62,501 bases of DNA from NCBI RefSeq assembly GCF_026571515.1, contig NW_026852643.1, positions 1 to 62,501 on the forward strand, read 5' to 3'. Position numbers and translations under genes: made by a program. This DNA comes from Ruditapes philippinarum (Eukaryota). The notes below the pieces were generated by a model. The model was given only the letters and a program-made list of their open reading frames with translations. It was not told the origin of the DNA and did no database searches. Positions within the stretch are counted from its first letter, which is position 1; the number at the start of each line of letters is the position of its first letter. Below, piece by piece: positions 6,654 to 53,563 of the stretch.

Positions 6654-6797
6654 ATGCATACAACGCGTTTTGTGATTTTTATGTCATTGTTTTTGAGAAT
6701 AACTGGAACTATTCTTAAAGATGGCGGTTATGAAGATGTTTATGTTTTGATTCATGAAAGTAATGACGAAAGTGATGAATTGTTACAAATAATTAAG
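6654..6797 (+). CDS. CLCA: CLCA-A exon 1 (signal peptide, MHTTRFV...LLQIIK)
   Basis: ATG, hydrophobic leader, GGYEDV motif shared with CLCA-B exon 1, donor AAG|GTAAGA, phase 0. Confidence 0.85.
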
Positions 6798-9700
6798 GTA
6801 AGATTATTTTCCTATTTTAAAGGTAGACCCATATTCACCCATTAAACTTTAAGAAGAATCTTGTGATCTAAACAAGTTTAGTAAGACGAGTTAGCGAATG
6901 CGAATCAATAACTTGCAAGATAATCCAATTATTTTACCCTGAATGCAAAACTTTTAAAACAATACACTACAATACAATTTTATACAATACAGTTAAATAC
7001 AATACGATACGATAGTTTACAATACGGTAGTTTACAATACGATACGATACGATACGATACAATACAACACAACACAATAAGACATCACAATACAATGCAA
7101 TACAATACAATGCAATGCAACACAATACAAATTTATACAATACAGTACAATACAATGCAATTCATTTTCATACAATACAATACAAGCGATACAATGCAAT
7201 AAAATACAATACAATTTGTTTGTTTTAAACATTGTACAACTTTTCCAGCATAATACATTGGCAGGTAACATAGTCAACAGTAACAATGCAAAAAAACAAA
7301 ATGTTATCAAATTTGAGTTAAAAAGATGTTTCTTTATATACCTATATATTGGAATATTTTGGGTTCGTAACAAATACACGACTAATAAACGATCACAGAA
7401 ACTGTGACTATCTAATATCATTTTGATTTGAGTTGCCAAAATTTGCATTATATTTCAGCTTATGATATGTTTGTTCAATACTCGAATTATGATCTTGTTT
7501 TAATAGGTGTACCTAATACTTAAGCATATTTATCTTTCTGTCGCATTCTGTCGGTAAATGCCCTATTTCACCGTTGCGCATAAATTTGTTGACCTTTTAA
7601 TATTTAACGTAAAACTTTTGTATGTATTGCTTTAATAGTATACAACTACCCTATTGAGTATTTTTTTTTTGTTTTAACAAAATCACACCGTTTCCAAATT
7701 GTCTAATAAAAATAGCTTTTCAGATGTACAACATGTCACAGAGCTTTAAGGGATTAGAATAAACGTTTAACTGAAGTGATAGTGTCATGTTTAAATATCA
7801 TATTCTTTTGATCATTATCTAATTTTATCTACATAATAAATAACATGCCAATGAGCCAGTCTATAGTCGATCGTTCTAAAACTTAACCATTGAGAAAGGT
7901 GACGACTGAGGCAGTATCACTTACTTCATTTGTTTCGCCTCTGTTGAAGTTCGGTTCCCCCTTAAATTGTCATATCTAATTTGATATTATGATCCATATG
8001 CTAGCATTAAGTCTTCGTTGACGTGTCGGAAAGGAACCAGGATAACTTTGGTCAATATCACTTGTTGAATTATTAAATTACAACTTACAAAGCCTAAACC
8101 ACGACCACTATCAGAGAGGCGGTTCTCCCAAGTACAGCAAACCCCTGTAATGTGATCCCTGCAGAACAGTTTGTCCTCAAAATCATTCGAACATTATGCA
8201 ATTCGTACCAATATCTAAATGGGTATTGTTGTATATTGTATACATATTATGTTAAATCTAAGTACTATCTTAAACTGTAATGCGCATGTTCATTATCATC
8301 CCGCCACTTATATATTTGGAACATTCAGTGGTCATTAAACGATAGAACTAGCAACACGTGTCTATGTTATAAATTACAAGTGTACGATCTGTGTACATAC
8401 ATGAATTAACAAATAGACCCATAATACAACAGGTATATTCTCGGCACATTGTCTTGAATTTATTTTAAGTATACCAATCATTTCAATTTTAATTGTTATC
8501 CAATTTATTTTGATTGGACCAGACGTTTCAGTCTTTGTCGTAACAGACAAACATTTAAGAATTTCAGACCTGGCATTGTTTTGTTAATCCATACATTAGG
8601 TTAAACTTTTTCACAAAAATATGCAACTTTATCATTAAACAACGAGCACATACCAAGAACATTGAGAAAAAAATTGATTGTCCTTGCTTCCTGTTCCACT
8701 GCAGTAACACAAGGAAGGTACCGATGGCGTCATGACAACGTACTTTGGGAGGTGGCTGACTGGCTTGAAGGTGAAAGGAAAAAGGAACGAAGGAGTAACC
8801 CCGAGCTTTGCCAGATCAACTTTGTGAAACCGGGTGAAACTGCCAAGACACAGTCGCCACACCCAACCATCAGTTCTAGATGGCGCAACAGGTTGGAACA
8901 TGGAGGTGGATCTTGGCAAGAAGCTTGTTTTTCCCAAGTATTGTCCAGACCAACTTAAGACCAGATATTGTATGGTCTGAAAAAGGAAAGAAACTCATCA
9001 TGATCGAATTAACAGTACCTTGGGAGACAAGATGTAAAGAGGCCTACGAGAGGAAGAAAGCAAAGGTATACAGAGCTTCTCAACCAATGTAGACAGAGAG
9101 GCTGGCATACATGGCTGTTTCCTATTGAAGTAGGTGTGCGAGGGTTCTGTTCGCAATCTGTGTGCCGACTGATGACAGCGATAGGAACTACTGGAAGGGA
9201 TAGACGTAGGACAATCCAAAGACTGAGACAAGCTGCCGAGCGTGCGTCTAGCTGGCTGTGGCTGAGACGAAAGGAGAAGAGCTGGATATGTACCTCGCAG
9301 TAAAGAGTATAGTTGAGAATTCCTTCCGTCAAATTTCGTCCCATCCCGTCCCATTCCATCCTGTCCCGTCCAATCCCATCCCGTCCCGTCCCATCCCGTC
9401 CCGTCCCATCCAATCCAGTCCCATTACATTACATTACATTGATTATTCATTACATGACATTTCATTTCATTGCATTATTACAATACATAACATGACATGA
9501 CATCATGACATATTACTTCGGTGAGAATTTTACTACAGTATATATTTGAAAGTTGTGGTGCAATTATGGCTTAATGTATAGTTCATGATATTTTCACCAC
9601 TTACATTAATATCTGATTGACAAAATTATTTACTGAAAACTTAATACTCCCCCGTGAGACTAAAACCTGAAATTTAAATTTGTGTTATTATTTCAGCAGT

Positions 9701-15700: not shown

Positions 15701-18700
15701 TTCAGCAGTTCACATCCATATAAAGTTAGTGGCAAAACAATTTGATAAATAGTCACAACCTGTTTTCTTTTATCTAATCATACATTTAAAAAATACACAG
15801 GGCATGTGTTTCATCTAAAGATATCAGATTTATAAGATTTTTTCTCATGATAACCCATACTCCTTTACGCATATTTATGTTAAAAGATTACATTATCATA
15901 ACAATTCGAATCTTATAAATTTATAAAGAAAGAAGGGAATATTATTTCGTTTATTTTATTTAAACATTATGTTTTCCAGTTTAAAGCTGCATGCCTCCAG
16001 ATGAGCCAAAACATTTCAAGAAACAACAATCTTGATAAAAAAAGTACTTTGATATTAAGAGATGTAAATATATATACAAGATAAAAGTGATCATTTCCAA
16101 ATTATGTGCAATGAATGACCGATTTTGCAGTATTTATCATCATATTTCCACTGCGTTACTATCGCTGTAACGGAAGTGTTTGCATATTGTGACCTTCTTT
16201 TTTGTAAAATACATGTGTTGTAAGTGCCGTTTGTTAAGTGTAAATCGTTTTCACAATATTTTGCATTTTAATACATTTTCAAAAAAAAAATCATATTCAT
16301 AACATTAACAGGAATGTGGAGGCATGCTGCTTTAAACCCTTTTTTTATCAAAAATTATATTTATATACTCATGTTCCCATACCGACATTTTTATAAATGT
16401 TTATCAAAATTTAATGACAACTCACGTGAAATTATAAACATGTAAGTTATATGGCTACAATTACGCCTGAGCTTATTTCTAAAATTCAGTTGTTTTGCTA
16501 CATTTATAAGTAGCATTGGATGCGGAAATATTATATAGACAGGATGACCCTATGTTTATAGTAAATGATTTCCTTTAGAAAAAGAAATCTATTATTCATA
16601 TACCATCAAATTGGGCGGTGTTATTTCCTCACATAGATAATTTTGTTTCCTTTTTTTCAAATTGGAAAGAAACTTTATCTTATACTAATTACAATCCTGC
16701 ATCCGGAAAATTACACATCGCTCCTATTAAGCGCTTACATCTTGAGCTATTGATCTTTATAACACAACCCGCATTTTCCCTATTGAACATACAAGAACCG
16801 AAAGTTTGTATTATTTAAGAAAAAAATATATTCCAAACTGATTTTAACGCTCAATAAAATCTCTGATTTGGATAAATCATAACATCCTGCTTGTAATATA
16901 ATTCTTCGCATCCGAAATCCAAACTCCCCCCCCATTCAACATAAATACAACACTTTACTAAAATAACTTATATTTTTTCATATATATTGTTATCTCATGA
17001 TTTAATATTCTTATCGCACTTCAAATAACTTGTATTCTGCAGGTGAGATCCGAGGAGTATATAGGTATTAAATATGTACACCAAGTATTTGTATATATAC
17101 GCATTCATTTTTAAAATAGATCAATCAGATGTTGATCAAAATTGTAGATGATAAAAAAGAAATGTCTCCGCAACTAAACGGCCTACATTAGGCGTCCCGT
17201 ACTTCTATACGCATAATTAAAGGCACATTATACCTCAAATGCTTAACGTTTGAAGATATAAGCTATGGTTATAAAACTATTTGTCATGAAAGTAGCAAAA
17301 TGTAAACAAAGTTGTATTTTGAGTTAAAAAACATACTAAGTCACTATAAGTGTACTAATTTCTAAAAAGGCAACATAAGCTATAGATGGTTCAGGTAATT
17401 TACCATTTACATTTCTGGGGAACTATGAGCCTTTAAAGCAGAAACGTTTTGCATTGATTCGTATTTTATATTTTCAGAACGTGCTTACAAACGCTTCACA
17501 ACTGTTGTTTAAAGCCACTCACAATCAGATCTACTTTAGAAAGATAAAAATAATTATACCAAAGACATGGTCACGACAATCAACATACAAGCAGCTCCCC
17601 ACACCTCCACTGAAAGACTCCTTTTTCTCAGTAGACAAAAATGGCGACAAAGCACCGCAGGCTAAAGGACACTTTTTATGTGGGAAGGCCGGCCAGTTTA
17701 TACATTTATCCGATAAGTTTCTGATGGCGAAAGGAAGATCTGCCTGGGGTCTTCATGGTATGTTTGCAAGTTAACATAATAATGTACTCAAGCTCCGGTA
17801 TAATTCAACACGTTTTTGTATTATATACAAAAATTATACAAAATAACAAACGAAGGTGACATTTCAGCTTCTAGAATTCTCAGTTTCATTTTCATAAATT
17901 CACAATTTAACTTCATGAATTCACTTTTCATGATTTCAACTTCGAGAATTCACGATTTCAACTTCGTGAATTCACAATTTCAAGTTTCTGAATTCACGAT
18001 TTTAAATTCGTGAATTTAAGAATTCAAATTCACGAATTCACGATTTCAACTTAAAGAAATCACAATGTCAACTTCACGAATTTACGATTTCAACTTAACT
18101 AATTCATCTTCATGAATTCATATTTTTAACTTCACGATTTCAATTTCAAAACATGAATTCATCAAGTTGAATTAATTAAGTTGAAATCGTGATGTTGAAA
18201 TCGTGAAAGGTATTGGCAGAAATATAATAACATAATATTTACTCTTTTCTCGTAAGAAGAAATAGTTTCTTGATAAGTTTCCAAGAGGCAAGTGTTTATC
18301 ATCTGGTGATAGTTAAATCACGTGTCTGTATTTCCAGCAAAATAAATATTAAAAGATAAATCAAGTATAATATTGTTTTACCTCGGAAAACTACACCTGT
18401 GTTTAAAATATTTTGATAATTACAGGGCAAAATAACATTTTATGGGCCACTTTAAACCTTTCAAACCGACCACATTAAAAGATAAGAAACGAGACCTGTT
18501 TTAATTTTTCTTAGTGCAGGATAGTCAAGCGTAATCAAGATTTCAAGATTTATTCAAAACCAAGGCATATAATATGCATAAATATAAGGTTATGATATTT
18601 CAACAATGTAATGAACAGTTATTCAAAAGTGATTAACAAAACAAATAAACATAAAATTATATAATAAGTCAAACATACAATGCAAAAATAATTTTAGGAT

Positions 18701-21700
18701 TATATACCCTTTTTTAAAAGAACATAACGGCTCATTTTAAAACCGCTTTTATACGGCCATACTATCTAATCTTTAAAACTAATAATATAAAGGACGTTTA
18801 AAGCCTTTAAAATGCAATATTTACCTTTTAGAAACATTTTCATTTGGTGTTTATTTACAGTTTAGTTTTGGTGTTTAGTTACATTTTAGTTTCGTTGGTT
18901 AGTTACATTACCGAAATGGTGCTCATTGGAAATATAACTGAGAATTTCGTGCTTCTTTTGCCTTATGTAAAAATAGAGAGATTTAGTATTTTTTTATGGA
19001 AGTCAAAATGCCACATTATGTTTTACCACTGTCATATTAAATATTTTCATATACAACTCTTCTTTCTAACATTAACAAAACATAAAATATTGGTTAGCTC
19101 TTTCTCCAAAACGAAAAATCAGAGGTCTTTTGGGAATTTAACCAATTTCCTACTCAACTGGTAAAAAGGTGATTTATCTCTGTCACCAATAAAAAACACG
19201 ACATTAAAGGCTGAAAGTGCATCAGAAATATTTTTATTTTCCGAAAGCTTTTTTTGTTGTCCTGTAAAAGCTTCCAAAAAGTTAATGATTACATGAACCC
19301 TCTTTTGCTTCTGTTGCCTTTTGGCAATTAGTACACTTGAATTGATCTGGTATTTTGTATGAAAGTCGAAATACTACTTTGTTTACATTTTATGATACTT
19401 TTATAACAAATAATTTAATAGTCTGCGCTACAAAATTTCAACAGGTGATAAACTTCTAACAGGCCTAACACGCTCTAAAACCATCATTTTATCGCTCGAA
19501 AAGTGATGTTTGCCCTTTTTGTAAAAGAAAAAACATCGATTCTGATGCATTATGTACCATTAAGAAATTATGTTTTGATTGTATTCCAATAGGTAACGTG
19601 GTCGTTCATGAGTGGGGTCATCTCAGATGGGGATTGTTCAATGAATTACCAATGAAAGGAAAACAATTCTATCAGGCAAATGGCAAATGGAACCCAACAA
19701 GGTATGTAGTTTGTACATTGTATTACTATTTCATTGATATTGAAGTTAATTTCAAAACAACCTACGTTTTGTTTAGTTGAAATAAATTATTCGTTTGCTT
19801 TAATTTGAAGAACTGGAAAGAATAAATGAAAACATATCTATTTCTCTGTTAAACCTGTTACATATTGCTAAACATATACTACCACTTTCAATATATGAGC
19901 CGTGTCACGACAAAACCAAAATAGTGCGTTTGCTACCAGCATGGATCCAGACCAGCCTGCGCATCCGCGCAGTCTGATCAGGGTCCATTTTGTTCGCGTA
20001 CCAATTCTATTACAAGTAGAGAAACTGATAGCGAATGGATCAGACTGCTCAGATGCGCAGGCTGGTCTGGGTCCATGCTGGTCGCATACCCATAATGTTG
20101 GTTTTGTCATGACGCGGCTGATATATATTTGATATCATTGTCATCTATGAATGTGTACGAGTATTTATTTGATGCGGAATAAATCTGTTGATGTTAGTTA
20201 GTTGTGATATTTGATACAGAAAATACAAGCTTTTTATCTGACACAAAATGTTTATCATATGCGCAATGATTATATTAAACAGCATACCGTCAGATTCATG
20301 CTAATTTTCATGAACATTTGAAAAAATGTATTTAAAAGTAAAATATTGTCATGTGAAAAAAGAAAGCGATTTACACATTGGCGTTGTCATTTTTAATCAA
20401 CGAAAATTACCAAAAATAAGTCAAAATAGACAATTATAGGCTTACTAAGTCAGTCACTCATGCAGTAGAAATGTGATTAATATTGCAAAATTATTAGCAT
20501 GCAGCTTTTCCTTTAATTTTAAATATTTTTACTTTTCATAAAAGTTTGCATATTTCTCAAGTTTTATTTTCATTAACTATTCTTGGCCCATCTGGAGACA
20601 TTCAGCTTTTAAGGTCCATTGTGCCTCAGAAATGCTTTTATTTTTATTTCCAGGAAATCTTTTATTTTGGTGTCCTCTTAAAATTTTCGAAAAGTCACTC
20701 ATTGCCCAATTGACTGATTTATATTTTACTTCTGTTACCTTTTGGTAATAAGTATACTTGAAGTGATTTAGTATTTTGTTTGGAAGTCAAAATACTATTT
20801 TGTTTACATTTTACTTCTTTAACATCAAATAATCTAATATTCTGCGCCACTTTTTTTGTTTGATAAGCATCTATCATGCTATTAAATAATTAATTAAATT
20901 AAATTAATTATTAAATTGCTATAAAACTACTGTTTGCTCTTGTTCTTTTTAGAAGAAAACAAACTATTCGTGCCTGATGCTTTTTCCCTAAACAAAAGTT
21001 TTTGCGTGTAATTGTTTTATAGGTGCACTACACATCAAAGAAGTTTGTGGTTAAAACCACGTAACACAATCCTAGTAAATGTACTTACTGAATTCTAGCA
21101 AAACCATGCACAAATGATGTTTTCAAAACCTAAATCCAAAACAAATAATCGCGCTAGTTTGATGATATTAATTATATAATAAGGTAAAAATTCAAATATT
21201 TAAAATGCATTAATCTTCATTTACATGTCTAGTTGCTGAATTAGATTAAAACACAGCACTAATTGTTTTTACGAACGATTTATTCAAGAATTAAGAATTA
21301 AAATGATCCATTCCACAGAACCAATCTTGGCTTCTACGCAAATGACTGTTTCGCTATTACCATAGATTGAAACCTTAAATTTCACTTTCAGAATCAAGGC
21401 AACTTTACACATCTGTTTTTGTATTTGTACCATATACATGTGCCAATCCGATACGAAATATTAAAGGTTTAAATGTTGTTATTTAAAAGCTATTACCTTG
21501 GCAAATTGATGCATGAAATTTAAAATATCATTTATACACAATTAAGATCACACGATGCTTAGATAAACAATGTTAAAATTTTCTTGATTCGGTTCTAATA
21601 TAAATAACATAATATACAAACATATATTAAATAATGTAGACTTTTGATGAATGCAGTCGAAATATTTAATGGTATTAAGTAACAATTAACATAATATTAG

Positions 21701-32161: not shown

Positions 32162-32194
32162 TTTATTGAATTGATTGGGACGTAAAGCAAAAGA

Positions 32195-32492
32195 ATCATC
32201 ATTGTGTTCATTATCATCATTATAATCATCAATCATATTATCTACATCATCATCACAAATTGCATTTTCTAAATCATCGTTACCAAATTTATTTTCTACA
32301 TCAGCATTTTCAATTACATTTTTCTACATCAGAATTTTCTACACCATCATTATCATTAGCATTTGCTTCATCATTATCAATAACATTTTCTACATTTTCA
32401 AAAATATTTTCTACATCAGCATTTTCTACATCATCACTACCAATATTATTTTTTATCATCATTATCAATAGCATTTTGTTCTACATCATCGT
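32195..32492. repeat. Low-complexity (ATC)n / CATTTTCTACATCA repeat in the CLCA-A 3' region
   Basis: Seen directly. Confidence 0.8.
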
Positions 32493-35400: not shown

Positions 35401-36120
35401 ACGGTGGTATTTATTCAGTATTGAGAGCAAGAAAGGTGTATTGTATATCACAATCAGAGAAAATTGATGAATACCTCGTTCGAAAGGAATCAAACTGAAA
35501 TACCGTGAACGTAACTATATTATTCTAATTTTTATATTGAACAGTAAATAAGTAATGTATTCTTTACTGCTGTTGACTGCTGGTAGAGAAACAAGAAGAA
35601 AAAGAATATTGAATTTCTGGTACTTGATGCTGCTAAGACAAGGCAAAGCAAAATAGTTGAAAATAAAAAGACATTGACGCATCTGATGTTGAGAAAAAAC
35701 CTATTAAACTAAATTATAACGTTGATAATCCTGTCAGTGAAAATGTCCTTAGAAACTTTAGACAAGAGGTTGATAAGTAATAATCCGGACCACAGTCTGA
35801 CGAATGAAGGGGCAACTTTATATGCGTATCCGTTGCGTCTCCGTTGGGAAACAGAAAAAGATATGACAAAATTCGATAGATAATTTGATATACAGCTATA
35901 GAATTACGGTAGACTAAGTTCTTATACTGAAGATGATTGTGTTGTTAATTAGGATTATGCGGATATTGTATATGATGATTTTGAATTTTGTTAAATGTAA
36001 ATGATGATTAATATATTGACGGAAAATGAATTGTGTAATCATTTGAACCATTTTTTTTTCAAAATTGTTAATTTTTCCCCTCATTCAAGTGTCAAACTCC
36101 ATTCTTCGTACATATTCTTC

Positions 36121-36144
36121 TTAAGCGATGTCATTCTTAACACT
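36121..36144 (-). CDS. CLCA: CLCA-B putative micro terminal exon (SVKNDIA*)
   Basis: Strong acceptor gttttctttcag, phase 0, TAA after 7 codons. Confidence 0.55.
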   Translation of the reverse strand, partial: SVKNDIA

Positions 36145-39100
36145 CTGAAAGAAAACAACGCGAATGAACAATTATAATTATTTATAAAACTCTAAGTATC
36201 AATATAAATAAAAGCTTGGGAAAGAAGAACCTATCGTACATAATGCTGGCTGCCATCCATACTACATCTATACCAGAACAATGCTAAACTTTTAGTCTTT
36301 TATATGATAAACGGTAACAGATATAATTGAACAGGAGTACAAAAATTCCTTTAAAATAAATATAAAATGTGACGTAATTATTCTTCTCAAATGGTTACCT
36401 TTGATCTCAGACGTTTCCTCAATAGCACAATCATAACGCATATTATCAGACCACATATTGTTCCGCCAACAGTGCCCCCAATTATGCCCGCGATACTGTC
36501 ATTTTCTGCAATTGTAGCTATTTCATCACTTTTAATATTCAATGTTCCTGGCTCTGCTTTCAGACGATATCCTTTTGCAACTACTATAGAGACGATATTT
36601 GACACTGCCCCTCGGTTTCCAGCATCGTCAACTGCTTGTATAGCGAAAAATGTAGTCTCGGTGTAGGACTTTTCAGCGTCTACAACAAACTTTATTGCTT
36701 CCGTTTGACCAGCCTCTTGAGGTATAAGACTTGTGTTTGTCATGTTCAAAATGGCAGCTGAATCAAAATTGTTTAAAAGCGCATCGAAGTCATCAGAAAC
36801 CCGCATTATATAAGATGATGCTGAAAGAAGAAATGTATATTTTTAAAACATTATTTTGAAATTATTTGGCATTTCAGAAAAAGATTACCTGAATAATTTT
36901 TCCATATAAGTGGATTTAAAGATCCTGTAGGTTTTGTGGTTGATATTGTTATTGTGTGTATACTACACTTGCAAAAAATAATATATGTATATAATCATGC
37001 AAATAAAACAATTTTCAAACATCAAAGAATATGAAAAATATGTACTGCAAATATTTGTGCACATTATATTAAATCAATAAATTATATGCATTCATTTCCT
37101 ATTGGAAAATTTTGACTTAGTTTTTATAGAAAATAAATTTCAAATTACATCCCTTTATTTACATGAAATGTTAAATTCGATAATATCTTTATAAATAATG
37201 CTTATTGGAACTTAATTGGAAGCATCATATCTATGAAATAAAACCATGAAAAAATGTGTAACAGGATCTTTAAATGGATATACCGCGTACTTGTACAAGC
37301 TGCATGATATGTGAGTTATAACATTTTGTTCATGTGTATAATTTTCATAAAAATCAACTAGCAACCCGACTCATTTAAGACAACATACCGCGTCCCTGAT
37401 TTCTATCATCACCGGTTGCAGTCCAACTTATTGTGAAATTTCTATTCTCTCCGTACACGGATGTTTCTTTTACAATGTGAAATATACCAACATCAGTAAT
37501 TCGTCCAGGGGCGACAACATCAGTAAAATCTTCGTCATTGATATCTTTAGTAACGTACAATTCTTCCATTACTTGAACCCGTTGAAATGATTCATCAAAA
37601 GGTTCGGGCTCATCTTCATCTTCTTAAAACATTAACACAATTTCTAAATTATTTCGAAAGCCGTTTACTTTTTATATTTATTTTTCATTCATTCATAAGA
37701 CAGAACCTTTCTTTTTTATAACTTTGTAAAAATGTGGATATTTGATATGATATTCAAAGATATTCTTTTCAAAAATCATTCAAAAGCGACTTATTTAATT
37801 GAGTGCATACCAAATAATGCTATAAGAGAAAAAACATATCAACTTTCTTTTAGGCAACTTTGTAGACATACTTTACTCAAACAACATTGTAACAAGAATT
37901 TGTTTCCAAAGAAATTTGAAAAAATAAAGTTACATTTACAATACAAACAATCTATACCTTCAATCACTGATGGGGCACCAATAACCTTTCTAGAAATTCG
38001 AGTCATGCCCTTTTGTCCAGATGCATAAACCTTAATGTTGACGCGTCCAGAGTCTAAACAACGAGGAAACACGTATCCGGAGTAAACACCATCATCGACA
38101 AATGCATCAGGATCTAAATATTAAATGATCAAACAACTGTGTTTAAAGTTTATAATTTATTCAGTTCTTAGCAATGTCTTGAGCTATTAATTATAAATGT
38201 ACAAAGGTTGGTCGAAAAATTGTTGTAATCGTTTTCTTAAGAAATACCTACTTTATGACTTGTCAACTCCATGATATGAAATTGCGACTTTTTAGTACAA
38301 AAAGGCTATTCAAGCAAAAAAAAACAAAACAAAACAAAACACAAAATTAAAACAAAAATATGATTTTATGTTGGTCTATATGGTCATGGCACACACGTTT
38401 TAAGATATTGTGCTATTGTCATTTGGCTTACCATGTCCATTATCGAGAAGTGACAATGTACATCGCTTATTATCAGCTTCAATATGTGCTTTTACCGATG
38501 CATTGATTACTTGTGAGTATCCCTTCGTAACAGTAGCAAACGCTACCGGGACGTCGCCAGAAGAAACGTCAATCTTTGACGCAGAAAGTTGCGTTGAGAT
38601 TTTGATGATATCAGGTTTTGTAGGCGTTGAACTTACATAATATTCAATAGTTTGATCGGGGTTTGACATTGATATTGTCAATAGATATAACCCCGCCTAG
38701 TTCAAAATAAAAATATTATTGTAAGTGTTAAACACATTGAAGTAAATTTGAAAGAAATTTTAATGATGATAGTTTTTTTTCATTCAACTATATTTGAATA
38801 AAATAGTATCTCAATATTGTCTTAAAATGTTTTATCTTCATATTAACAACCATGCATTCTGTTTAACAAAAGTGTAAATCAGTAAAGAAATGTCAATATA
38901 TCTAAACCATTAAAAATTATAGAATCAGTGATAATAATCCTACAATAAACGTATAATATTAAAATCATAAAATATTTACAACTGTTGAAGAATTAATCAA
39001 TACGAAGAAAATGATATATTGCTTCCAATCGAACTTCCATATGTCTTTCTATAAATCATATCCCAATATCAAATTAATATTCCATTGTTATTTAGATTAT

Positions 39101-42100
39101 AGTGGAATATCTTATTGTATATGGAATTAAGTAAACAAATGATACATATAGGTATGATCAAATGAGGTAGCGAGTCAAACCTTACCTTTGATCGCTTAAA
39201 ATATTTCTGTAATTCATGACCAGTTATCATTTTCTTATCATGTAAAAAACAAATTCACTAATTGATATCATTTAAATGTGAAATCTGTAAGCCAAAGAAG
39301 GAAAACATATATTTACTCACCTCGGCTATACCATTAATAAGCATCGTTACTTGCGTTCCGTTCATGGACAGTGCTTGAGTGAATCCATTTGGTCCAGAAA
39401 CTTCAAGGTGTAGTTCTTGGTATAATCTCGATATAACTGTAATTGTCGTATTAGCTCCAATACTTTCTTCTATTGCAAAGTCAAATTTGAGAGTTGTTGA
39501 ATTTGTTGAATCGATCTTTTCAGACACAAGCTTAAACAAAAAAAAAATATGAGTAATTACGTACAATTTAAAAGGTTACTTTTTATATCTTGCTTATTTT
39601 CCCATCTGCTATGATTTACTCGTAACCAATTGTTATCTTATTCTTAATATGTAACTATATGAAACAGTGTATATTTATCTGCCCTTTACACCGTTTTAAA
39701 CACATCTATGTCACATTTCAGCAGTAAATGAACCAAACCACTACTGAGATCAGTATCGGACTAAATAAAGGTAATTGTATTCTTAGATTAATGTTACCTA
39801 ACTAAAAAAGAATAAAATAAATCCTTTAGTGATGAATGACTATGATAAACAGGTGATACCTTCTTTAAGGCATTTTTATTAAAATAATCTTACAGACTAA
39901 GCTTTGAAGTTACGTCTCTATGACAAAAGTATTTTCTTGACTGAAATTAAATGCATATTTAACCGAAATTATAACGAACGTGATAAACTAACTGTTTCTA
40001 ATTGGCTGGCTGACATGGTATGATCGTCTTTTATTGATTCACTGAACGTAGCAGCAAAGCTGATGGAACCTTTGTCAAGGTATGTGTAATGTTTGCCACC
40101 AGTATCTTGTGCAATTTCAGCAAGGATGCTATCCGCCTCTTGTGAAACAGCTATCGTGTTTACAATTACTTTCTCACTAACAGCTTTTTGAATTGATGCC
40201 CGAATATTCCCTCTGTTGTTAAGACCATCGGATATCAGCACAATTCCAGTATTTTCAGCACTTTCTAGATTTATTTTTAGAATCTGTAAGCAAATATCAT
40301 GCATATAATTGTATAATGATGAAAATATAGTAGAAAAAAATAAAACTTAATTTTTATATATAAGCACATTTCATGTTTTATATGACTAGATGTGTTTTCT
40401 TTACCTTAATTGCTTCTTCAATACCACACCCTATGCATGTTGAACCTGATGCGACGGAAGGAAGACCAGATTTAAGGGCATCTTTATCAGCCTGGGAGTT
40501 GATCTGTTTAACATATGTTGTAGTTGAAGCCGAGCTGCTGAAGGTAACAATACCAAGCCAACTGCCTTGTGGTATGACATCTTGAATGACATACCTACAT
40601 GTCTGTTGTAATATGGTGAGCTTTAACTGCAAAATGATCACGAACATAACGTTTAAGATTGTTATACAATAATTGTAGTATAAACCGAGGGTGACATAAG
40701 CTGACATGCATTAATAGTAACATTTAACTTTTTTACATAAAACACACTTGAGAAATTAATAAATAGATTTCAAAATGGATTAAAATTTAGCAAAGTTTTA
40801 ATGGCAACTGATTGAAGGCTTCATGTCAAATCTTATAAAACTTTGCCAATGTACTTTCGGCGTTTGCATGAAGTGAAGTTCCAAAATAAATATTATTGGA
40901 TCCAATCCGATCAATTTTGCTTAGTTTTCATTTCCAGAGTCCAACAAATCTGTACTAAATACATATCATACTCCATCCTGCCTTGTTTAAATGTTTGATC
41001 ATATTAATTTGTTCTTGAAGTAACAAATTTTTGTCAAAAGATGTGAAACAAAGAGAACATGTTAGATTGTTGAAAACATTACTGATACTATTTGACATGT
41101 ACTTGGATGCAAAACCTATTTCAGAATCGGCAAGTACCCTGTACAATATATGTTTGACAACTATATACTAGTCCAATAGAATTCAGTTCTATTGGACGAG
41201 TATATAGTAAACATGTTATAAAGTCATAAAGATGCTTCTATAAAAAAAATAAAGAAATAAATATAGAAGCATCTTTATAACTTTATAACATGTTTCCTTA
41301 TTAAAATAACCGCCCCCCCCCCCCCAAAAAAAAAATAAATAAAAAAATTGCACATCAATAATATTAAACATATTAAATTATATGATAAGATTATCGGCAA
41401 TTAAGAGAAAGATCAACTTACAAATGTATTTAAGTATGGTATGTGTTAGTTTTTAAATATTTAAATATCGTTGTTTATATATACATGTAACACGTTTCTT
41501 ATTCTTATAATATGGAAAATGAATAAAAAATTTACCCCTTTCATACTTCCAGAAACATCTAGGACAAACACTCTATGTATTTCGTTCGAACTTTGAATAA
41601 TCTCAAAATTTGGAACGGTATTAGTGTCAGGTGGTAACAAAGTGTTATCTGAAATAAATATACATTATCAGGTTTGCATATGAATACCTATTGAAAGTCA
41701 TATCAATACATTTTGTGCAAGAAGTGTTGCATATACTTGTGTGATGTGGAGTGAATAAGGAATAATTAGCAGGATTTTATGATAGATGAGCGCACGCGTA
41801 AGAAACGGGACGTCTTTATTACGAATTTTACAAACAAAATATATTTATTAACTTTTCTTTTCCATAGTCCATAAAAACAGTTCCACATGGGCGGGTAGAA
41901 GAGTTTCGATTGTAGTAAATGAAAGTATAATTATCACCAAGTATTGGCAATATTATCTGGATTTTTATACTTATAAACAACACATCGTTTGTTCAGAGGA
42001 ATTTGCTAAAGAACAACATTCAAAACATTGACTGGGATATCATGAAAACTCCAAACTGTGATCAAGAGGATGCTTCGTGAAAGGAACTGATTATATTTAA

Positions 42101-45100
42101 TGTAGACGGGACAGTGTGGTATATATTGACACAATTAATTCTGCCCGCAAAAAGAAAGTGACATCTCGCCCACAGCAACATACATAATAAAAGCAAATGA
42201 AATTATCCAAGATAAGACAACATTTTGGCATCTTTCCCACAGCAAATTCAACCCTGATCGTACCAGGCATCAGTTAACACAACATTATTGATTTTGGGCA
42301 ACACACATCTGCAAAAATCAAATATTGCAAGCTTGTGAAATTAAATTAAAGAAAGAGACAATGAGAGTGTTGAAAACATTATATGAGAAGTACCACTAAG
42401 CTATATGTTAAAAAGGGCAATACTAAATAAAAACATAAAATTTATTGTTAAAAATTCAAACTCCACGTAGTCTAAATAACGGTACACCAGTCTGTTCCAA
42501 CAAAACATAAGCTAATCAACAACTCGTTTTTCGCGTTACTAAATGTACCCATCTTTTCTTTTAAAATGCGGAAGAAAGTATGAAGAAAGTTTTCAAAAGA
42601 ATCAAAGAAACACATAATTCTATTTTCTCTGAAACAAATATAGATGCCTATATCTTATGAAGCATATTAAGAAGAATTTCTATAACAAAACGTTTAAGAA
42701 AATCATCGCATAACAAACTTTTACAAGTGATAACTGAATTTAGATGTATGTTATAATAAAATATGTTTGTGTCGATATATGTTATTTAAAGAAGACTATC
42801 TTCTAGGCTGATTGCAGTGTGGACAGATAACAACAATGTGATAATAAGATCAAAATGATCAATAATTTTTATAATGAACAAGGCATATATAAAAGCGAAC
42901 TAGAGGGGCATTGCCTTGTAACAGTCAGCAGCATAAGAACTACTAGGGGTTAAAATTGGATAATTGTGCACAAGACCTCACCCTAAGCCCCAACAATTTC
43001 CTATTCAACAAACCAGTAATAACAAAGTGATCACCAAACAGTTGTTATGGTAACAAAAGGTTCAATAAGTAATACACAGAAAGGATCCTGTAGAGATATA
43101 TAAACCAAAATGAGCATAACAAAAGTCAATGTCCTAAAGGAAGAAAGAAAAGTAATAAAAAGAGCATTGAAAGGTAACGAATACCTGCATTACAGTTAAC
43201 GCACTGCGCATGTATGGGTTAACGATTTAACTCTGACACATTTCAATAGAAAGGTCTTCAAATTAGGTACAACTATTAATATCAACTATAAGATCCCGAC
43301 AAAACAAGGCAAAAGAAGTTCACTTAGTACTTAATTATAAATTATTTATGTCTAACACGTTAGGTCATATCAAAATAAAACGAACCTTTGAAATCAATGT
43401 GTTTTCTCATAACCTCCCAGACGCTCTTGTATTTGCAAACAATGTTGTGTCTATTTGGTGCTTGTCTGTTATGCCTTTGCTCAGAATTCACAGTTAAATC
43501 ATCTTTATCACAAAAACTTTTAATCTATGATAAAAAATCAATGTCATGACAAAATAAGAGTTTATTTCTGTAAATGTTTATGATAATCATGATACAATAT
43601 TAACTCATAAGGAATTGACTTTATTGTACATTCGTGTTGAGGGCTTATTTAGCTTTAGATTACACACATTGCCAATTTTGAAAATATTAGAATAGTAGCA
43701 CATCTCTATATCTGTCTATAGGACACTGAAGAAAAAAAACTAGAAGTGGAAGGTCTTTTTTTGATATTTACGAGGCCTTAATTTTCAAAAACTTTAAAAA
43801 CTTGAAACGGACTTCAATTCTTAATAAAATCACAGTGTAGGCAAAGACAGATAAGTGTTCACAAGATGTTGAGGACGAATGGGGCTATTTTACCTTTACA
43901 AATCTAGAATGCTCGTGAACTTACTGAATTAAAAAAGGAATATCCCATCAAGCTTGCACTATTATCCTTTTGTTCAATCGGACAAAACTTACATCGATCA
44001 CTTATTTTTTTACCCGTGTTAGAAATGTCACATTCAATGTCATTTGAAGAGCATCCTTTTCCGATTCCGATCTTTCCCTTTATTTGTGTGGTGCACCTAA
44101 TATCAAATAAAACGATATATTAGTTTTTGTTTTAGCTTAAATTTCAACAAACATGTGTGCGTAAGGTTAAACGTTTGTTTACTTCAATACAATGTAACAC
44201 AGCTATTCGTCCTGAAACAGAAATGTTTATGGTCAAAAGGTCAATGTCACTTGGACCTGCTATAACAAGATATGGAACTGGTCATTTAATCTACATTAAC
44301 CTTGGACCTCCAAACTTTGTATGATGATGTACTGATCACACATATTGCCAGGTCAAAACTGGCATGCCATTTAATCTTTATGCACCTTATATTGTACATT
44401 ATTACTAAAATTGATAACTAAATGTGACATTTTAGAATAATACCTTATATTTTATATCTCTTTACAGGAGTAATGACAAGGTAAAGTAAGAGCATCGAAA
44501 CACGAGGCTATCTGATTTGTACAAAGGGGCGTAGCCCCCGAGTATAAATCAGATTGCCGAGTGTTTTGATGTTCTTTCTCTTTTGTATTATAGTCATGTC
44601 ACATTATGAAACCCCAAGGAAAATTAACCAAATGAACGATCATCTGAATATGATATTTTTGTCGCTTTCCCTTTCTCTTCCGTCGCAATAAGCAACCACA
44701 ACAAAAATGAGCCAATCAATGGACATGCTCAGGAGTGCGGGTAACTAATACAAGTCCTGCACTCCAGTTAACGCACGCACTGTGCATGTATATGTATACG
44801 ATTTAACTCTGACACATTTTCAACAGAAAAGTCCCCAAACTATAGTACAATTTACAGATATCAAGTTTCAAGATAGCTTGACACCAACAAAAAAGAAATC
44901 GAAAGCAAAACTGGGACAGTTTATGAATACCTGATGTAACTATAATATAAATTAAAACGTAGAATGTATATCCGATTATGTAATAATATTAAAAAAAATG
45001 TTTAACGTATCCTAAAACATGGGAAGATTTAAAGAAAATTTAAGTTTAATACTGCACCTTACAGGGATCCATTTACCACTTCCTTGATAAAATTTTGTTG

Positions 45101-48100
45101 AAATTGGATATTCATCAAAAACTCCCCATCTTAGATGAGCCCACTCATGGACAATCACGTGATCTTTACAACATATAAAAACAGTACTATCGTTACGTGT
45201 TTTGTATCAAGATTAGTATGAAATCTTAAATAATAACTGCATATCTTTAGTTTCAAAATTAATATCAACTCTGTACTTTGCAAAAAAATCCAATACTGAC
45301 ATTAAATAAAAACCATGAGATCTTTAAGAGAACAAAAAGTATAATGTTTATGAAAATATAACCAATATTTCATTGAAATGTAATGTAATATTTAGGTCAG
45401 AACATCGTCTAGGATGCTTAGCTGAGCTTCTTAGGCCGATTTGGCAGTCATGACTCTAGATTTGACACACTTCACAGACAGCTATGAGATACAACGGAAT
45501 CCTGGAACCAGTCCCTAGCTCTTTTTGAAAAGACCTCTTGGTTCTTTTACACGCCCGAGTGTATAGCACTGATGCGCGGATTACCTGGATTTCTTACAAG
45601 TACTCGTATACCTCTAGTTAGGTGAGAAACACTGAAAAATCCCACGAGTGTTGCGTTCATTGAACGCCGCCTTTCTTTGTTGATCTTGTTTATCATATTT
45701 TACCCAGGATCGAACCCGGGACCTCGGGATTGACAGCCATGGGTCTAACCAACTGAGCTATTGCGCCACGTACGAAATAACACTTCTCAAAAAGTACTAG
45801 TAATAAACACATGCAAAAAGTTTTTATACCGGTTGCTGCATAAACATTTCAATTAATTGGTACTTTGAATCTGTTATCTAAATATTTTCGCAGAACAATT
45901 GATGTTGTAGTCTTGCTTTGGAAATGGGTGTTTTGTGCCCTTTGCTGGTAATATTAAAAACAATTCGATTCAATCAAGCCATGTCTGCAGCTTTTGTTTT
46001 TGGCAATTTAGTGCAATTCTAATTGTGATATGAAGTTTATCGTTTGACGATAAGTACAGGATTGTAAAAATACTTGTTCTGATTTCGTTTTTTTCAGCAA
46101 CCTTTCTCGCTAGCTGACACAAATATTTACTGTTATATAGAGATGTAAACTCTAGCTTTTATACAAAGATGTTAACTGTTAACTGATGAACAAATATGAC
46201 AAGAGCTGACAGTAGGACAGGGTGCTGAACTTAGTGCTTGATAGTCAAACAAGAGCCTGGATTATATAGAATTGTCTTAAAAGGGCCAAATCTCTGTTCA
46301 AACCAGTGTTATATATATGGGCCTTTGGCAGTGACCTTCAATGCTCGTTAGTAAGTGTGTGAAGTTTGTTTAAGTACTTTTGGAGAGACCAACTTGCACG
46401 CAAAAACTTAACCAAAATGCGACAGCGTTGGCTAAAATAATTTATACAGGGACTTCTTTTGTAATTCAAACATAAAAGCGATTCTTCAAATATGTACACA
46501 CTGTTGTATAATAATTACGTAAATTGTTATTATACAAAGATACAAACTGATCTACCTAGATGTGAACCGTTATCTAACTTTTAGGTTGCTAACTGTTAAA
46601 CAACTGTGTTTTTTCAAATATTCAAATATGTGAACACTTTTTAACAAAGGTGTTAAATTTTATACTCAGATGTTAACAGTTCTTTGAAAAGATTTAAACT
46701 GCTCTTCAAACTGCATTTGTAAAAAAGAAAGATGTGAACTGGTTTAAAAAACAGTAAACTGTTTTCCAAAAATGTGAACTTTTAAACAAAGATGAAAAGA
46801 CATTAACAATAACGATATCACTTTTACAAAACTGTTACCTGTACCTAGATGAAAATATTAAAAATAAATAAAAATGAAAATCATTATTCGACGATATAAA
46901 GTTTTTAACAATGATGCATTCATTTAGTATTCGCCAGGGCCAACAAAAAACTGCAAAAAAAAGAAAAGAAAAAGAAAAAAAAAGAAACTGTCATGAAAAA
47001 AAAACATCAAGTAATACAAACAAAAAATAAATATATCAGCAGATATGTCCATTCAATGTATTCTATATTAGTTTATTTAATCTACAATTTATTTTGTCTA
47101 TACATTTATTTTCACCAGCGATACCAGGAAAAAACGACTCGAAGGAAACAAGGTGGAAAGGTTAACTTACCATGTGACCCCCATCTAGTGTATCCCCCTT
47201 TTAGAATGAAGTCTGTAGAACTTAAGAACATGTAACTTCCCTCTGCTCCACAAACGCCTGTAGAACGTACATGTGGGGTTGTCATACCAGCGATAATTTT
47301 ATCAAGTATAATATATTGCCTAGACAGGGATGGAGCTGGGATATTCAAGTACTCTGGCTTCTTCGACCATGATTTTGGAACTACTATCCTGATATTTTTT
47401 AAGTATAACCTGTTTTCTGTTGCTGTAAGCATTAAGCTTGATGCCTCGGTAAATACCTCCTGTCGAAAGTGTTAATTTCAAATTTAGTTTGTCGAATGAG
47501 TTAAAGCAACCCTTAGTAAAAGATACAAATCTTTCAATTTCAAAATCAAATAACCAGCTCATTGTCCATAAACAGACCTCGCTCGAATATATTTGTTCTT
47601 ATGTTCTTAGATAATTGTAAGTTTGAATGATACAGATTTTATTCTGCCTACATATTCATATGTAACTTTTGCTAATGCATTTAACATATATAATAATTCC
47701 TAATGTAATTTATAGTTAAACGTATTGTTTCGATAATAAAATGTATAAAATGGGTGCATTAATATGACAGCATGTATCTTGGTATAATTATTTTGTTAAA
47801 GGAACCACTATATAACAGTTTTATAGAAAAGATGTAAAGCTATTTTGACTGAAATATTTTTTCATAAGATTATTATTGTAAACATATACTGCTACAATAA
47901 TCTTATACTTCAACCCGGAACAAGATATTAGCCTGCTTTTTTGTATTAAAAGTACTTTATAACCGTTTAGCAATGATTTTACGCATGCATTTTTGTACAA
48001 TTATATTTATATTTCTTTTAATCAAATAATTTTGAAGTTATTCTTTTCGTCAGATTAAGCTGACTACATTTGTATTTTCCAGACGTTTAGCAACTGACAT

Positions 48101-51100: not shown

Positions 51101-52097
51101 AAGTAATAAAAAGCGTGTGCCCTAAACGAGAAAACAATGGGCGGAACTAAATAAAATGGAATTTTGAAAGGGAATCAGAGGTTATGAAGCCTGCGTATCA
51201 CAGATAAGACGTCAAAAGACAAATTTAAAAAGCAGGCAACAATTCCTAAGGGTGATTCAATATTATTCAAGTAGGAATATTGGAACCACCCAACTAGAAA
51301 ATGCCGAAAAGTTGAAACTAAAAATACCACAAGCACAACAATAATGTCTTGCTGAACGATCTTCAAGGATCGAAAATATAACATCATTGATTAAATGTAC
51401 GGGGAGACTTTTTACAGCCGCCACACGACAATCTTTGCCTCTTTTTGGTAGTTTACGTGCATTGTAAATGCCGTTTGCAATGCAAAAATTACTTTTATTG
51501 TTCTCTTCACATTTAAAATACTTTACTTTTCATAAACTATTCGTTACAAAAGCAACTATATAAGATAAGTTTGTCTGATTATATAGGGTACAAAAGATCT
51601 TTTTTCAACAACAAATATATTTTTTACAATGAATTCATGTAATTGAAATAACATCGAATTATAACTTCGATTGCATTTTACTATTACGTACATCTCAATC
51701 CAGGAATCATTTGATCGAGCACTACTCGACCATGTTTCTTCAGATGACACCAGTACTGTTTGGTTACAGGAAACGGACTCGACATTGATTGATATAATTT
51801 AAAAAGAACTTGTTTCGCAACCGCGCTTAACTAAATATATTTAAAGTAATTGTCATTTAGAATTGTTTAAGATTTCATGTTTCTTAATTATTTTGTTCCG
51901 GAATATTGTTTCTGATTTATTTTGATAGACAGGTTAAACTTCAACCGTACCTTTATTCTTCTGATCAGATTATCATTCTCCTCAACACCCTCCCGTATGA
52001 AGATGTAAACGTCCTCATAACCGCCATTGTTCACCTTTATAGAAATACACACTTTCACGACGAAAATTAGAATCAAACATTTTATGTTAGAGCCCAT
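36121..52097 (-). CDS. CLCA: CLCA-like gene B, intact, 14 exons (5'->3'): 52097-51951, 47459-47171, 45163-45058, 44096-43925, 43524-43386, 41648-41536, 40626-40405, 40283-39993, 39530-39321, 38696-38432, 38113-37958, 37622-37389, 36820-36399, 36144-36121; about 929 aa type I membrane protein
   Basis: The spliced ORF is continuous (2790 nt): signal peptide, [49 protein letters not shown] helix [25 protein letters not shown] followed by RKRLR. All splice phases are compatible. Confidence 0.93.
36399..36820 (-). CDS. CLCA: CLCA-B exon 13 (end of FnIII-like domain plus transmembrane helix); reads to a stop at 36387 if unspliced
   Basis: [20 protein letters not shown] helix, RKRLRSK, then AAG|GTAACC donor. 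Confidence 0.9.
37389..37622 (-). CDS. CLCA: CLCA-B exon 12
   Basis: FQRVQ...APGRITD...SWTATGDD; 234 nt. Confidence 0.9.
37958..38113 (-). CDS. CLCA: CLCA-B exon 11
   Basis: [14 protein letters not shown]; 156 nt. Confidence 0.9.
38432..38696 (-). CDS. CLCA: CLCA-B exon 10
   Basis: VINASVKA...LLDNG; 265 nt. Confidence 0.9.
39321..39530 (-). CDS. CLCA: CLCA-B exon 9
   Basis: 210 nt; GAG|GTGAG donor. Confidence 0.88.
39993..40283 (-). CDS. CLCA: CLCA-B exon 8 (VWA)
   Basis: IVLISDG...AQDTGG; 291 nt. Confidence 0.9.
40405..40626 (-). CDS. CLCA: CLCA-B exon 7 (VWA)
   Basis: [11 protein letters not shown]...STCIGCG; 222 nt. Confidence 0.9.
41536..41648 (-). CDS. CLCA: CLCA-B exon 6 ([12 protein letters not shown])
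   Basis: MIDAS DxSxS; AG/GT ends. Confidence 0.9.
43386..43524 (-). CDS. CLCA: CLCA-B exon 5 (IKSFCD...[18 protein letters not shown])
   Basis: 139 nt; HN..APN.HN CLCA motif. Confidence 0.9.
43925..44096 (-). CDS. CLCA: CLCA-B exon 4 (CTTQIKG...CKFCP...[11 protein letters not shown])
   Basis: 172 nt, open, Cys-rich, ASLM motif. Confidence 0.9.
45058..45163 (-). CDS. CLCA: CLCA-B exon 3, canonical [14 protein letters not shown] zincin motif
   Basis: Read from the reverse complement; absent from the ORF track because it is too short. Confidence 0.93.
45375..45768 (-). mobile_element. tRNA-headed SINE with a Deu/Nin-type core
   Basis: Reverse-strand head GGCGCAATAGCTCAGTTGGTTAGA...GGTTCGATCC (A and B boxes); body with the CTCTTTTTGAAAAGACCTCTTGGTTCTTTTACACGCCC core; short (TTACA)n tail. 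Confidence 0.75.
47171..47459 (-). CDS. CLCA: CLCA-B exon 2 ([10 protein letters not shown]...RWGSH)
   Basis: FTEAS..L..AT..R.Y...I.IVVP.SW CLCA motif; AG/GT ends. Confidence 0.9.
50825..51390. repeat. Local dispersed repeat: inverted copies at about 54675-54880 and 56830-56910, direct copy at about 59100-59405
   Basis: Shared blocks GCAGGCTCGGTTTGATTGAGCCTGTT, CCCCTAGCACCGGCTTAAGCAGAATTCAACATTTAA and CCCTAAACGAGAAAACAATGG.CGGAACTAAATAA. Confidence 0.8.
51951..52097 (-). CDS. CLCA: CLCA-B exon 1 (signal peptide, MGSNIK...LIRRIK)
   Basis: NGGYEDV motif; donor AAG|GTACGG. Confidence 0.88.
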
Positions 52098-53514: not shown

Positions 53515-53563
53515 ATGGAAACATATGTGTTTGCATTTCTTATTGTTTGCACAGCAGTAACAC
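53515..53563 (+). CDS. C-type lectin exon 1 (signal peptide)
   Basis: ATG, hydrophobic leader, C|GTAAG donor, phase 1. Confidence 0.75.

What the first reader, a model, noticed from the sequence alone, without database searches (positions are those of the whole stretch)
6654..52097. Tail-to-tail CLCA paralogue pair with apparent division of labour: catalytic transmembrane CLCA-B versus motif-altered, GPI-like CLCA-A
Seen: the genes share intron phases and several exact exon sizes (139, 210, 265, 156 nt), so they arose by an old inverted duplication. They differ at both functional ends. CLCA-B has [14 protein letters not shown] and a TM helix with a basic cytoplasmic tail. CLCA-A has HEWGHLRWGLFNEL and ends in a hydrophobic stretch with no tail. 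Both keep the VWA MIDAS residues. Known: CLCAs are self-cleaving zinc metalloproteases (HExxHxxxGxxDE) whose VWA domain modulates TMEM16A and which act in mucus. Inference: this may be a protease/pseudo-protease pair with different membrane anchoring in a mollusc mucosal locus, for example with B cleaving A in trans.
Basis: partly seen in the sequence, partly recalled or inferred. Interest (0 to 1): 0.7.

Follow-up and report, generated by a model that had tools for sequence, protein, structure and literature searches.

The report
Clam CLCA with altered zinc site
Two neighbouring clam genes of the CLCA protease family differ in that one carries a conserved change at a zinc-binding residue and a predicted lipid (GPI) anchor, so it is likely a weakened protease kept as a surface-tethered binding protein, and likely not a dedicated partner of the other.

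Summary
Both genes and motifs are real. CLCA-B (14 exons, 929 aa) is an ordinary transmembrane CLCA. Corrections: the Gly in HEWGH is normal (16 of 16 other copies in this genome); A's exon 4 is frameshifted in the window, likely an assembly error; B has an unnoticed last exon; A and B are not sister genes but neighbours in an expansion of about 17 copies, so nothing singles out B as A's activator. 'Dead' is not shown: HExxH, Met-turn, second zinc site and MIDAS are kept, and the same Asp-to-Asn arose 6-7 times across animals, keeping HExxH in 12 of 13 sequences. GPI anchoring and trans-cleavage are already known for human CLCAs. Verdict: new variant of a known kind; likely a catalytically weakened, GPI-anchored CLCA; an active Asn-liganded protease remains possible (0.27).

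The parts
6654..6797 (+). CLCA-A exon 1 (start codon, predicted signal peptide)
17478..17757 (+). CLCA-A exon 2 (CLCA N-terminal domain)
   Evidence: Pfam PF08434 E 1.8e-15; RNA contigs X15, X16
19593..19701 (+). CLCA-A exon 3: HExxH 19607-19621, Asn in place of zinc ligand Asp at 19640-19642, Leu in place of Tyr at 19646-19648
   Evidence: X16 contig 0 differences
21023..21183 (+). CLCA-A exon 4 (Met-turn exon), frameshifted in the window; likely assembly error
   Evidence: open 169-nt copy with SLMGY on C6743; 169-nt gap inferred in RNA contig X16
22023..22161 (+). CLCA-A exon 5 (139 nt; Cys and His aligned with the second zinc site)
23308..23414 (+). CLCA-A exon 6 (MIDAS DTSGS 23394-23408)
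25497..25721 (+). CLCA-A exon 7 (VWA, MIDAS Thr)
   Evidence: P0001
27258..27566 (+). CLCA-A exon 8 (VWA, MIDAS Asp)
28665..28874 (+). CLCA-A exon 9 (210 nt)
29179..29443 (+). CLCA-A exon 10 (265 nt)
30111..30266 (+). CLCA-A exon 11 (156 nt; Gly-Ala at the position inferred to match the self-cleavage site, 30239-30256)
   Evidence: joint to exon 12 in 4 of 4 runs
31038..31274 (+). CLCA-A exon 12
31788..32161 (+). CLCA-A exon 13: candidate omega site T-S-x-A 32087-32098, hydrophobic run 32111-32158, stop 32159-32161
51951..52097 (-). CLCA-B exon 1
   Evidence: matches public model P0193
47171..47459 (-). CLCA-B exon 2
45058..45163 (-). CLCA-B exon 3 with canonical HExxHxxxGxxDEY (45149-45108)
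43925..44096 (-). CLCA-B exon 4 (Met-turn SLMGY 43954-43940)
43386..43524 (-). CLCA-B exon 5 (139 nt)
41536..41648 (-). CLCA-B exon 6 (MIDAS DVSGS)
40405..40626 (-). CLCA-B exon 7
39993..40283 (-). CLCA-B exon 8
39321..39530 (-). CLCA-B exon 9 (210 nt)
38432..38696 (-). CLCA-B exon 10 (265 nt)
37958..38113 (-). CLCA-B exon 11 (156 nt)
37389..37622 (-). CLCA-B exon 12
36399..36820 (-). CLCA-B exon 13: TM helix 36494-36420, basic stretch 36419-36399
36121..36144 (-). CLCA-B exon 14 coding part (7 residues and stop); 3' UTR runs on to at least 34683
   Evidence: joint 36399/36144 in X15, X16, X17

Best explanation
CLCA-A is a transcribed, conserved member of a venerid clam CLCA lineage whose catalytic zinc site was changed at two residues (Asp to Asn, Tyr to Leu), likely weakening or silencing its protease, and which is predicted to be GPI-anchored, so it likely works as a surface-tethered VWA/MIDAS binding protein, while CLCA-B is an ordinary transmembrane CLCA with a canonical site. 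Shown: gene structures, splicing, constraint, orthologue conservation, tree position. Inferred: reduced catalysis (Asp167 is the third zinc ligand and Tyr169 holds the P1' residue in human CLCA1), GPI attachment at a conserved Ser-x-Ala, and function through the MIDAS. Any cleavage of A's loop would come in trans from whichever canonical paralogue shares its tissue, not specifically from B; the two genes are neighbours in an old, expanded cluster.
For: Constraint: dN/dS 0.17 over 635 codons against the C6743 copy; listed allele differences 16 synonymous, 7 not, with 22% synonymous sites. A's protease domain is 61-63% identical to three Mercenaria orthologues, like its other domains (57-64%) and like B to its orthologue (60%). 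All 3 Mercenaria A-type genes whose model holds the motif read NEL. Of 46 protease-domain columns invariant in 6 canonical-type sequences, the A clade keeps 38, and Asn and Leu are the only two changes fixed in all 4 members. Outside the clade an aliphatic residue at the Tyr position goes with a broken HExxH in 3 of 4 sequences. Known zincin third ligands are His, Glu or Asp (PMC3890501 passages); roles of Asp167/Tyr169 from bioRxiv 2025.10.18.683246. All 5 A-type genes end T-S-x-A plus 22-26 residues with no Lys/Arg after the hydrophobic run, while 4 TM-type proteins have 5-9. Tree: NEL clade 100/100; B groups with P0002 inside a clade with other paralogues, 96/95.
Against: HExxH with the catalytic Glu, the Met-turn, the second zinc site and the Gly-Ala loop are all kept. 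Family-wide, Asn at this position keeps HExxH in 12 of 13 sequences, like Asp (99 of 108), against 0 of 7 for residues other than Asp, Glu or Asn, which argues that Asn is tolerated by working enzymes. No activity or zinc geometry was measured; the fold model gave no coordinates. GPI is judged by rule of thumb only. The window's own exon 4 is frameshifted, so the assembled animal may carry a null allele. Only two genera are sampled for the A clade.
Confidence: 0.5

Rival explanations
1. CLCA-A is an active protease that uses Asn (or a water held by it) as third zinc ligand, with changed specificity or rate from the Tyr-to-Leu change; it self-cleaves and sheds its N-terminal part from a GPI stub as human CLCA4 does.
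For: 12 of 13 Asn sequences keep HExxH; the trait needs 7 changes on a 134-row tree, 6 forced by starred branches (FastTree), and occurs in reedfish, sea urchins, sea cucumbers and Daphnia. A keeps every other catalytic element.
Against: Nine of the 10 Asn sequences outside the clam clade keep Tyr; the clam clade does not. Asn is not among known third ligands. Asp-to-Asn is a one-base change, so it is also the easiest first step of inactivation (inference). Sequences are not independent, so the Fisher p of 1e-4 overstates it.
Confidence: 0.27
2. A and B are a dedicated pseudo-protease/protease pair in which B cleaves A in trans.
For: They are adjacent, 4 kb apart at the stops; Mercenaria A-type P0003/P0006 and B-type P0002 lie on contigs of the same length, 88 Mb, likely one chromosome; A keeps the Gly-Ala loop; wild-type human CLCA2 cleaves its E165Q mutant in trans, 1.5-6% (PMC10669480 passages); contigs of both genes occur in 3 of 4 runs.
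Against: A and B are not sisters; 15 of 16 other copies in this genome have HExxH plus Asp; Mercenaria also has A-type genes on a 76-Mb contig; a broken B copy on C116 shares B's flank only to 34683 and no A last exon was found there.
Confidence: 0.12
3. A's C-terminal hydrophobic run is a plain tail-anchor helix or is simply secreted, not a GPI signal.
For: Peak hydropathy of A's tail (2.73) is close to B's TM helix (2.88); no GPI predictor was available.
Against: Conserved Ser-x-Ala 22-26 residues from the end in 5 of 5 A-type genes, polar residues inside the Mercenaria runs, no basic stop-transfer residues; human CLCA4 sets the precedent.
Confidence: 0.15
4. CLCA-A is a decaying pseudogene; the motif change and short tail are decay.
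For: Exon 4 in the window has stops and frameshifts, and skipping it would shift the frame.
Against: Open 169-nt exon 4 on C6743, whose exons 2-3 are garbled instead; window exon 4 has 21 G against 36; an in-frame 169-nt spacing in RNA contig X16; dN/dS 0.17; orthologues share the features.
Confidence: 0.03

Closest known systems
Human CLCA4 (GPI-anchored, self-cleaving; PMC11231702)
   Same: CLCA domain, VWA with MIDAS, tailless hydrophobic end predicted in A to be a GPI signal
   Different: CLCA4 has the full HExxHxxxGxxDE motif and shown activity and PI-PLC release; A has Asn and Leu, nothing shown biochemically, and the anchor arose separately in clams (tree)
Human CLCA2 (type I TM; PMC10669480)
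   Same: B has a canonical motif, one TM helix and a basic tail; trans-cleavage of an inactive molecule is shown for CLCA2
   Different: That result is between copies of one protein; B is not an orthologue, and bivalve proteins lack about 17 residues of the vertebrate loop after the cleavage site
Human CLCA1 / CLCAsin metzincins (bioRxiv 2025.10.18.683246)
   Same: His, His, Glu, Met-turn and the Cys-Cys-His second zinc site align in A and B; the VWA of the A-type model matches 6PYO at Z 25.3, rmsd 1.6, 158 residues
   Different: A replaces Asp167 and Tyr169; CLCA1 is secreted; the inhibitory hairpin is shorter in both clam genes
CLCAs with substituted catalytic sites (Lenart 2013, PMC3650047) and inactive ADAMs
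   Same: Lineage-specific loss of catalytic residues in an expanded family; decoy or accessory role proposed
   Different: The cases in the text read concern H, E, H of HExxH; A keeps these and changes the third ligand

Membership tests
CLCA family | CLCA N-terminal domain (PF08434) | tested here: met
   A exon 2 E 1.8e-15, B exon 2 E 1e-14, A-type P0191 E 9.3e-63
CLCA family | VWA domain with MIDAS (DxSxS, Thr, Asp) | tested here: met
   residues present in A and B; P0002 aligns to 6PYO at E 4.8e-21; model match
Active CLCA metzincin | HExxH with catalytic Glu | tested here: met
   A and B
Active CLCA metzincin | Third zinc ligand Asp in DEY | tested here: not met
   met in B; A and Mercenaria orthologues have Asn and Leu
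Active CLCA metzincin | Met-turn and second zinc site (Cys, Cys, His) | tested here: met
   by alignment; A's Met-turn read from the C6743 copy and the degenerate window exon
Active CLCA metzincin | Metzincin fold of the protease domain | tested here: inconclusive
   A-type model pLDDT 87.9 overall; both fold searches were filled by the VWA domain
Active CLCA metzincin | Zinc-dependent self-cleavage | not testable with these tools
   Gly-Ala aligns with the vertebrate cleavage position in 7 of 7 bivalve sequences, which is sequence only
Pseudo-protease | No catalytic activity with fold retained under selection | tested here: inconclusive
   selection shown; inactivity not shown, family pattern mixed
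GPI-anchored protein | Signal peptide, small omega/omega+2 residues, hydrophobic end without cytoplasmic tail | tested here: met
   rule-of-thumb scan and conservation in 5 of 5 A-type genes; signal peptide by inspection; the rules are recalled, no predictor run
GPI-anchored protein | Release by PI-PLC | not testable with these tools
   bench test
Dedicated enzyme/pseudo-enzyme pair | One-to-one sister paralogues with co-expression | tested here: not met
   not sisters; many other canonical copies; co-expression not measurable from contigs

The most novel reading that the evidence does not exclude
CLCAs have repeatedly (6-7 times, in clams, echinoderms, a water flea and a fish) swapped the third zinc ligand Asp for Asn while keeping a working HExxH site: an active Asn-liganded metzincin class, of which the GPI-type clam CLCA-A lineage is one example.
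Probability: 0.27. Interest if true: 0.68.

Novelty: new variant of a known kind. Interest (0 to 1): 0.42.

Why it matters
CLCA proteases are studied almost only in mammals, and their substrates and regulation are open questions. A natural, selected variant changed at exactly the third zinc ligand and the neighbouring Tyr is a ready test of what those residues do and of whether CLCA's VWA function can be uncoupled from proteolysis. If Asn forms are active, the zincin ligand rules widen. The TM/GPI/secreted spread and trans-cleavage are known from human CLCAs, which limits surprise.

Tried and rejected
Alternative exon 4 in A's intron: 57 open AG..GT candidates, best score 24, none resembling B's exon 4 beyond the degenerate one. 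Relative expression: A contigs in 4 of 4 runs, B exon joints in 3 of 4 and no listed B coding piece in X19; contig depth cannot rank genes and missing cover proves nothing, so not used. Raw RNA run X21 covered A at only 1-3 reads. No listed DNA piece of X6 spanned exon 4 at 88%, a weak hint only. Fold searches did not test the protease domain. No complex prediction was run: enzyme-substrate pairs are poorly served by it. The careful tree did not finish (quick tree shown); repeated on 26 rows without the mixture model. The 2012 mutagenesis paper on CLCA1 was not held; that D167A blocks self-cleavage is recalled only and not used as evidence. PMC9007345 held none of six terms. Literature searches: CLCA+bivalve+expansion gave 4 papers, none on this by listing; D167N occurred in 0 of 15 listed papers; third zinc ligand+asparagine+HEXXH+aspartate gave 3 unrelated by listing; one search listed only passing mentions. 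Earlier findings: none. Dropped rows: P0008 and P0145 lacked a full motif and one duplicate row of P0141 was merged (135 rows to 132; 131).
Full report
Observation. The window is a whole contig of a 1.4-Gb genome; a public protein on a contig of the same length, named CLCA regulator 1-like of Ruditapes philippinarum, matches my model of B exons 1-8 and then reads into the intron (P0193). Both motifs stand where stated. B's exons give an open frame; RNA contigs add a 14th exon through a GT..AG joint in 3 of 4 runs, giving 929 aa with a TM helix and six basic residues after it. A has 13 exons with the same phases.

A's exon 4. In the window this exon carries stops and frameshifts, and exon 3 cannot join exon 5 in frame. 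A second copy of A on contig C6743 has an open 169-nt exon 4 with the Met-turn, while its exons 2 and 3 are garbled at about 76% identity and its exons 5-13 are 92-98% identical. The window's version is 161 nt and has 21 G against 36. One 1070-nt RNA contig (X16) covers exons 2, 3, 5 and 6 in order with 155 unmatched bases between exons 3 and 5; adding the 14 bases the aligner lent to the flanks gives 169, and the 3 differences at 22011-22022 are those expected from the C6743 exon end. I did not see the RNA's exon-4 letters. The likely reading is patchy assembly error; a null allele in the assembled animal is not excluded.

A is expressed and constrained. Joints of exons 11-12-13 appear in 4 of 4 runs and the stop is read unchanged. 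The tool marks these runs as RNA by guess; the GT..AG joints at exon borders show spliced transcripts. dN/dS is 0.17 over 635 codons against the C6743 copy, against 0.44 with 48 gap columns for B against its broken copy on C116; the listed allele differences (the best-supported rows only) are 16 synonymous and 7 not. Mercenaria has A-type genes: P0003/P0191, P0004 and P0006/P0192 read NEL; P0005's model lacks the motif exons. Identity to them is even across domains, 61-63% in the protease domain.

What is altered. The Gly in HEWGH is ordinary: of 16 other exon-3 copies fetched, 9 read HEWGH, 6 HEFGH and 1 REWGH, and all 16 keep Asp-Glu-Tyr/Phe (some may be alleles). In human CLCA1 the zinc is held by His156, His160 and Asp167; Tyr169 stabilises the site and bonds the P1' Ala695; Met238 is the Met-turn; Cys187, Cys250 and His255 hold a second zinc (bioRxiv 2025.10.18.683246, passages and section 9). 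A keeps all of these by alignment except Asp and Tyr. Of 46 protease-domain columns invariant in four bivalve and two vertebrate canonical-type sequences, the A clade keeps 38, and only these two changes are fixed in all four members. This is a targeted change, not decay.

Dead or different? Among 132 full motifs from the protein searches, Asp keeps HExxH in 99 of 108, Asn in 12 of 13, Glu in 2 of 4, other residues in 0 of 7; Asn needs 7 changes on a FastTree tree, 6 forced by starred branches, and named carriers include reedfish, two urchin genera, two sea cucumber genera and Daphnia. That favours tolerance of Asn. Against it, 9 of the 10 Asn sequences outside the clam clade keep Tyr, an aliphatic residue there goes with broken HExxH in 3 of 4 other cases, and known third ligands are His, Glu and Asp (PMC3890501 passages). 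I put weakened or silent catalysis at 0.5 and an active Asn form at 0.27.

Anchor. Five of five A-type genes end in T-S-x-A, 22-26 further residues, a hydrophobic run and no basic residue after it; four TM-type relatives and B have 5-9. In this genome 11 of 11 other readable last exons have a helix followed by a longer tail, one of them apparently frameshifted; the C6743 copy is cut by its contig end and two C8906 pieces gave no frame. GPI anchoring is predicted, not shown. It is known in the family: human CLCA4 is released by PI-PLC and self-cleaves (PMC11231702 passages), and tailless ends also occur in frog CLCA1-like proteins with canonical sites.

Pair or cluster? On a 26-row maximum-likelihood tree rooted on Mytilus, the NEL clade has 100/100 and joins tailless P0008 (97/95); B joins Mercenaria P0002 (97/98) inside a clade with other paralogues (96/95) (same shape). 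The split predates the two genera, and A and B are 42-48% identical. Searches found 18, 17 and 23 matches for single exons in this genome. Exon sizes 139, 210 and 156 recur in other paralogues. Trans-cleavage is known for CLCA1 and CLCA2 (PMC10669480 passages), so it is plausible but not tied to B.

Comparison and novelty. Substituted CLCA active sites and lineage-specific expansions are in print (PMC3650047, parts 2-3 of 6 and passages); PMC4647060 (passages) added only the domain scheme. I found no paper on bivalve CLCA expansion or on a D167N-type variant in the searches, judged from listings; most subscription papers and the supplements were not visible. The AlphaFold model of Mercenaria P0004 is confident (pLDDT 87.9, pTM 0.87) and its VWA matches CLCA1's. 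Verdict: a real, conserved variant of a known family; the two-gene division of labour is not supported as such; interest 0.42.

Noticed in passing
window 30111-30266 and 37958-38113; P0002-P0006, P0026-P0028: All 7 bivalve CLCAs aligned that reach this region plus A and B lack about 17 residues of the vertebrate loop after the cleavage position, the hairpin that blocks the active site in human CLCA1; autoinhibition may work differently in this lineage.
   Followed up: partly
P0201 (Dreissena polymorpha): A separate lineage with intact HExxH, Ser at the third ligand and a tailless hydrophobic end: a possible convergent pairing of both traits.
   Followed up: partly
L016 (G000:C2502:39150-39750): A paralogue with Arg in place of the first His, the substitution type described by Lenart 2013.
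   Followed up: no
L035-L037 (G000:C116): Broken copy of CLCA-B with stops and frameshifts, sharing B's downstream flank to window 34683.
   Followed up: partly
window 53518-60402 (+): A C-type lectin gene lies head-to-head with CLCA-B; last exon Pfam Lectin_C E 3.7e-7.
   Followed up: partly
window 32162-36120: RNA contigs run from A's side to about 34064 and from B's side to about 34683, so the 3' UTRs may come within about 600 bases; no overlap seen.
   Followed up: no
C6743 exon 4 (6488-6656): This species' A lacks two cysteines that B and the Mercenaria A-type genes keep, possibly one disulfide.
   Followed up: no
P0193, P0001: Public annotation holds only partial models: B cut at exon 8 (500 aa) and the second A copy from exon 6 (586 aa).
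   Followed up: partly
window 19891-20126, 23987-25134, 3530-4956: A very high-copy element with 89-nt inverted arms in A intron 3, a 31-bp tandem array in A intron 6, and near-identical frames on opposite strands upstream of A.
   Followed up: no
window 8605-9300, 13189-13614: Open frames in A's 10.7-kb first intron that look like mobile-element remnants (recalled resemblance; no Pfam match).
   Followed up: partly
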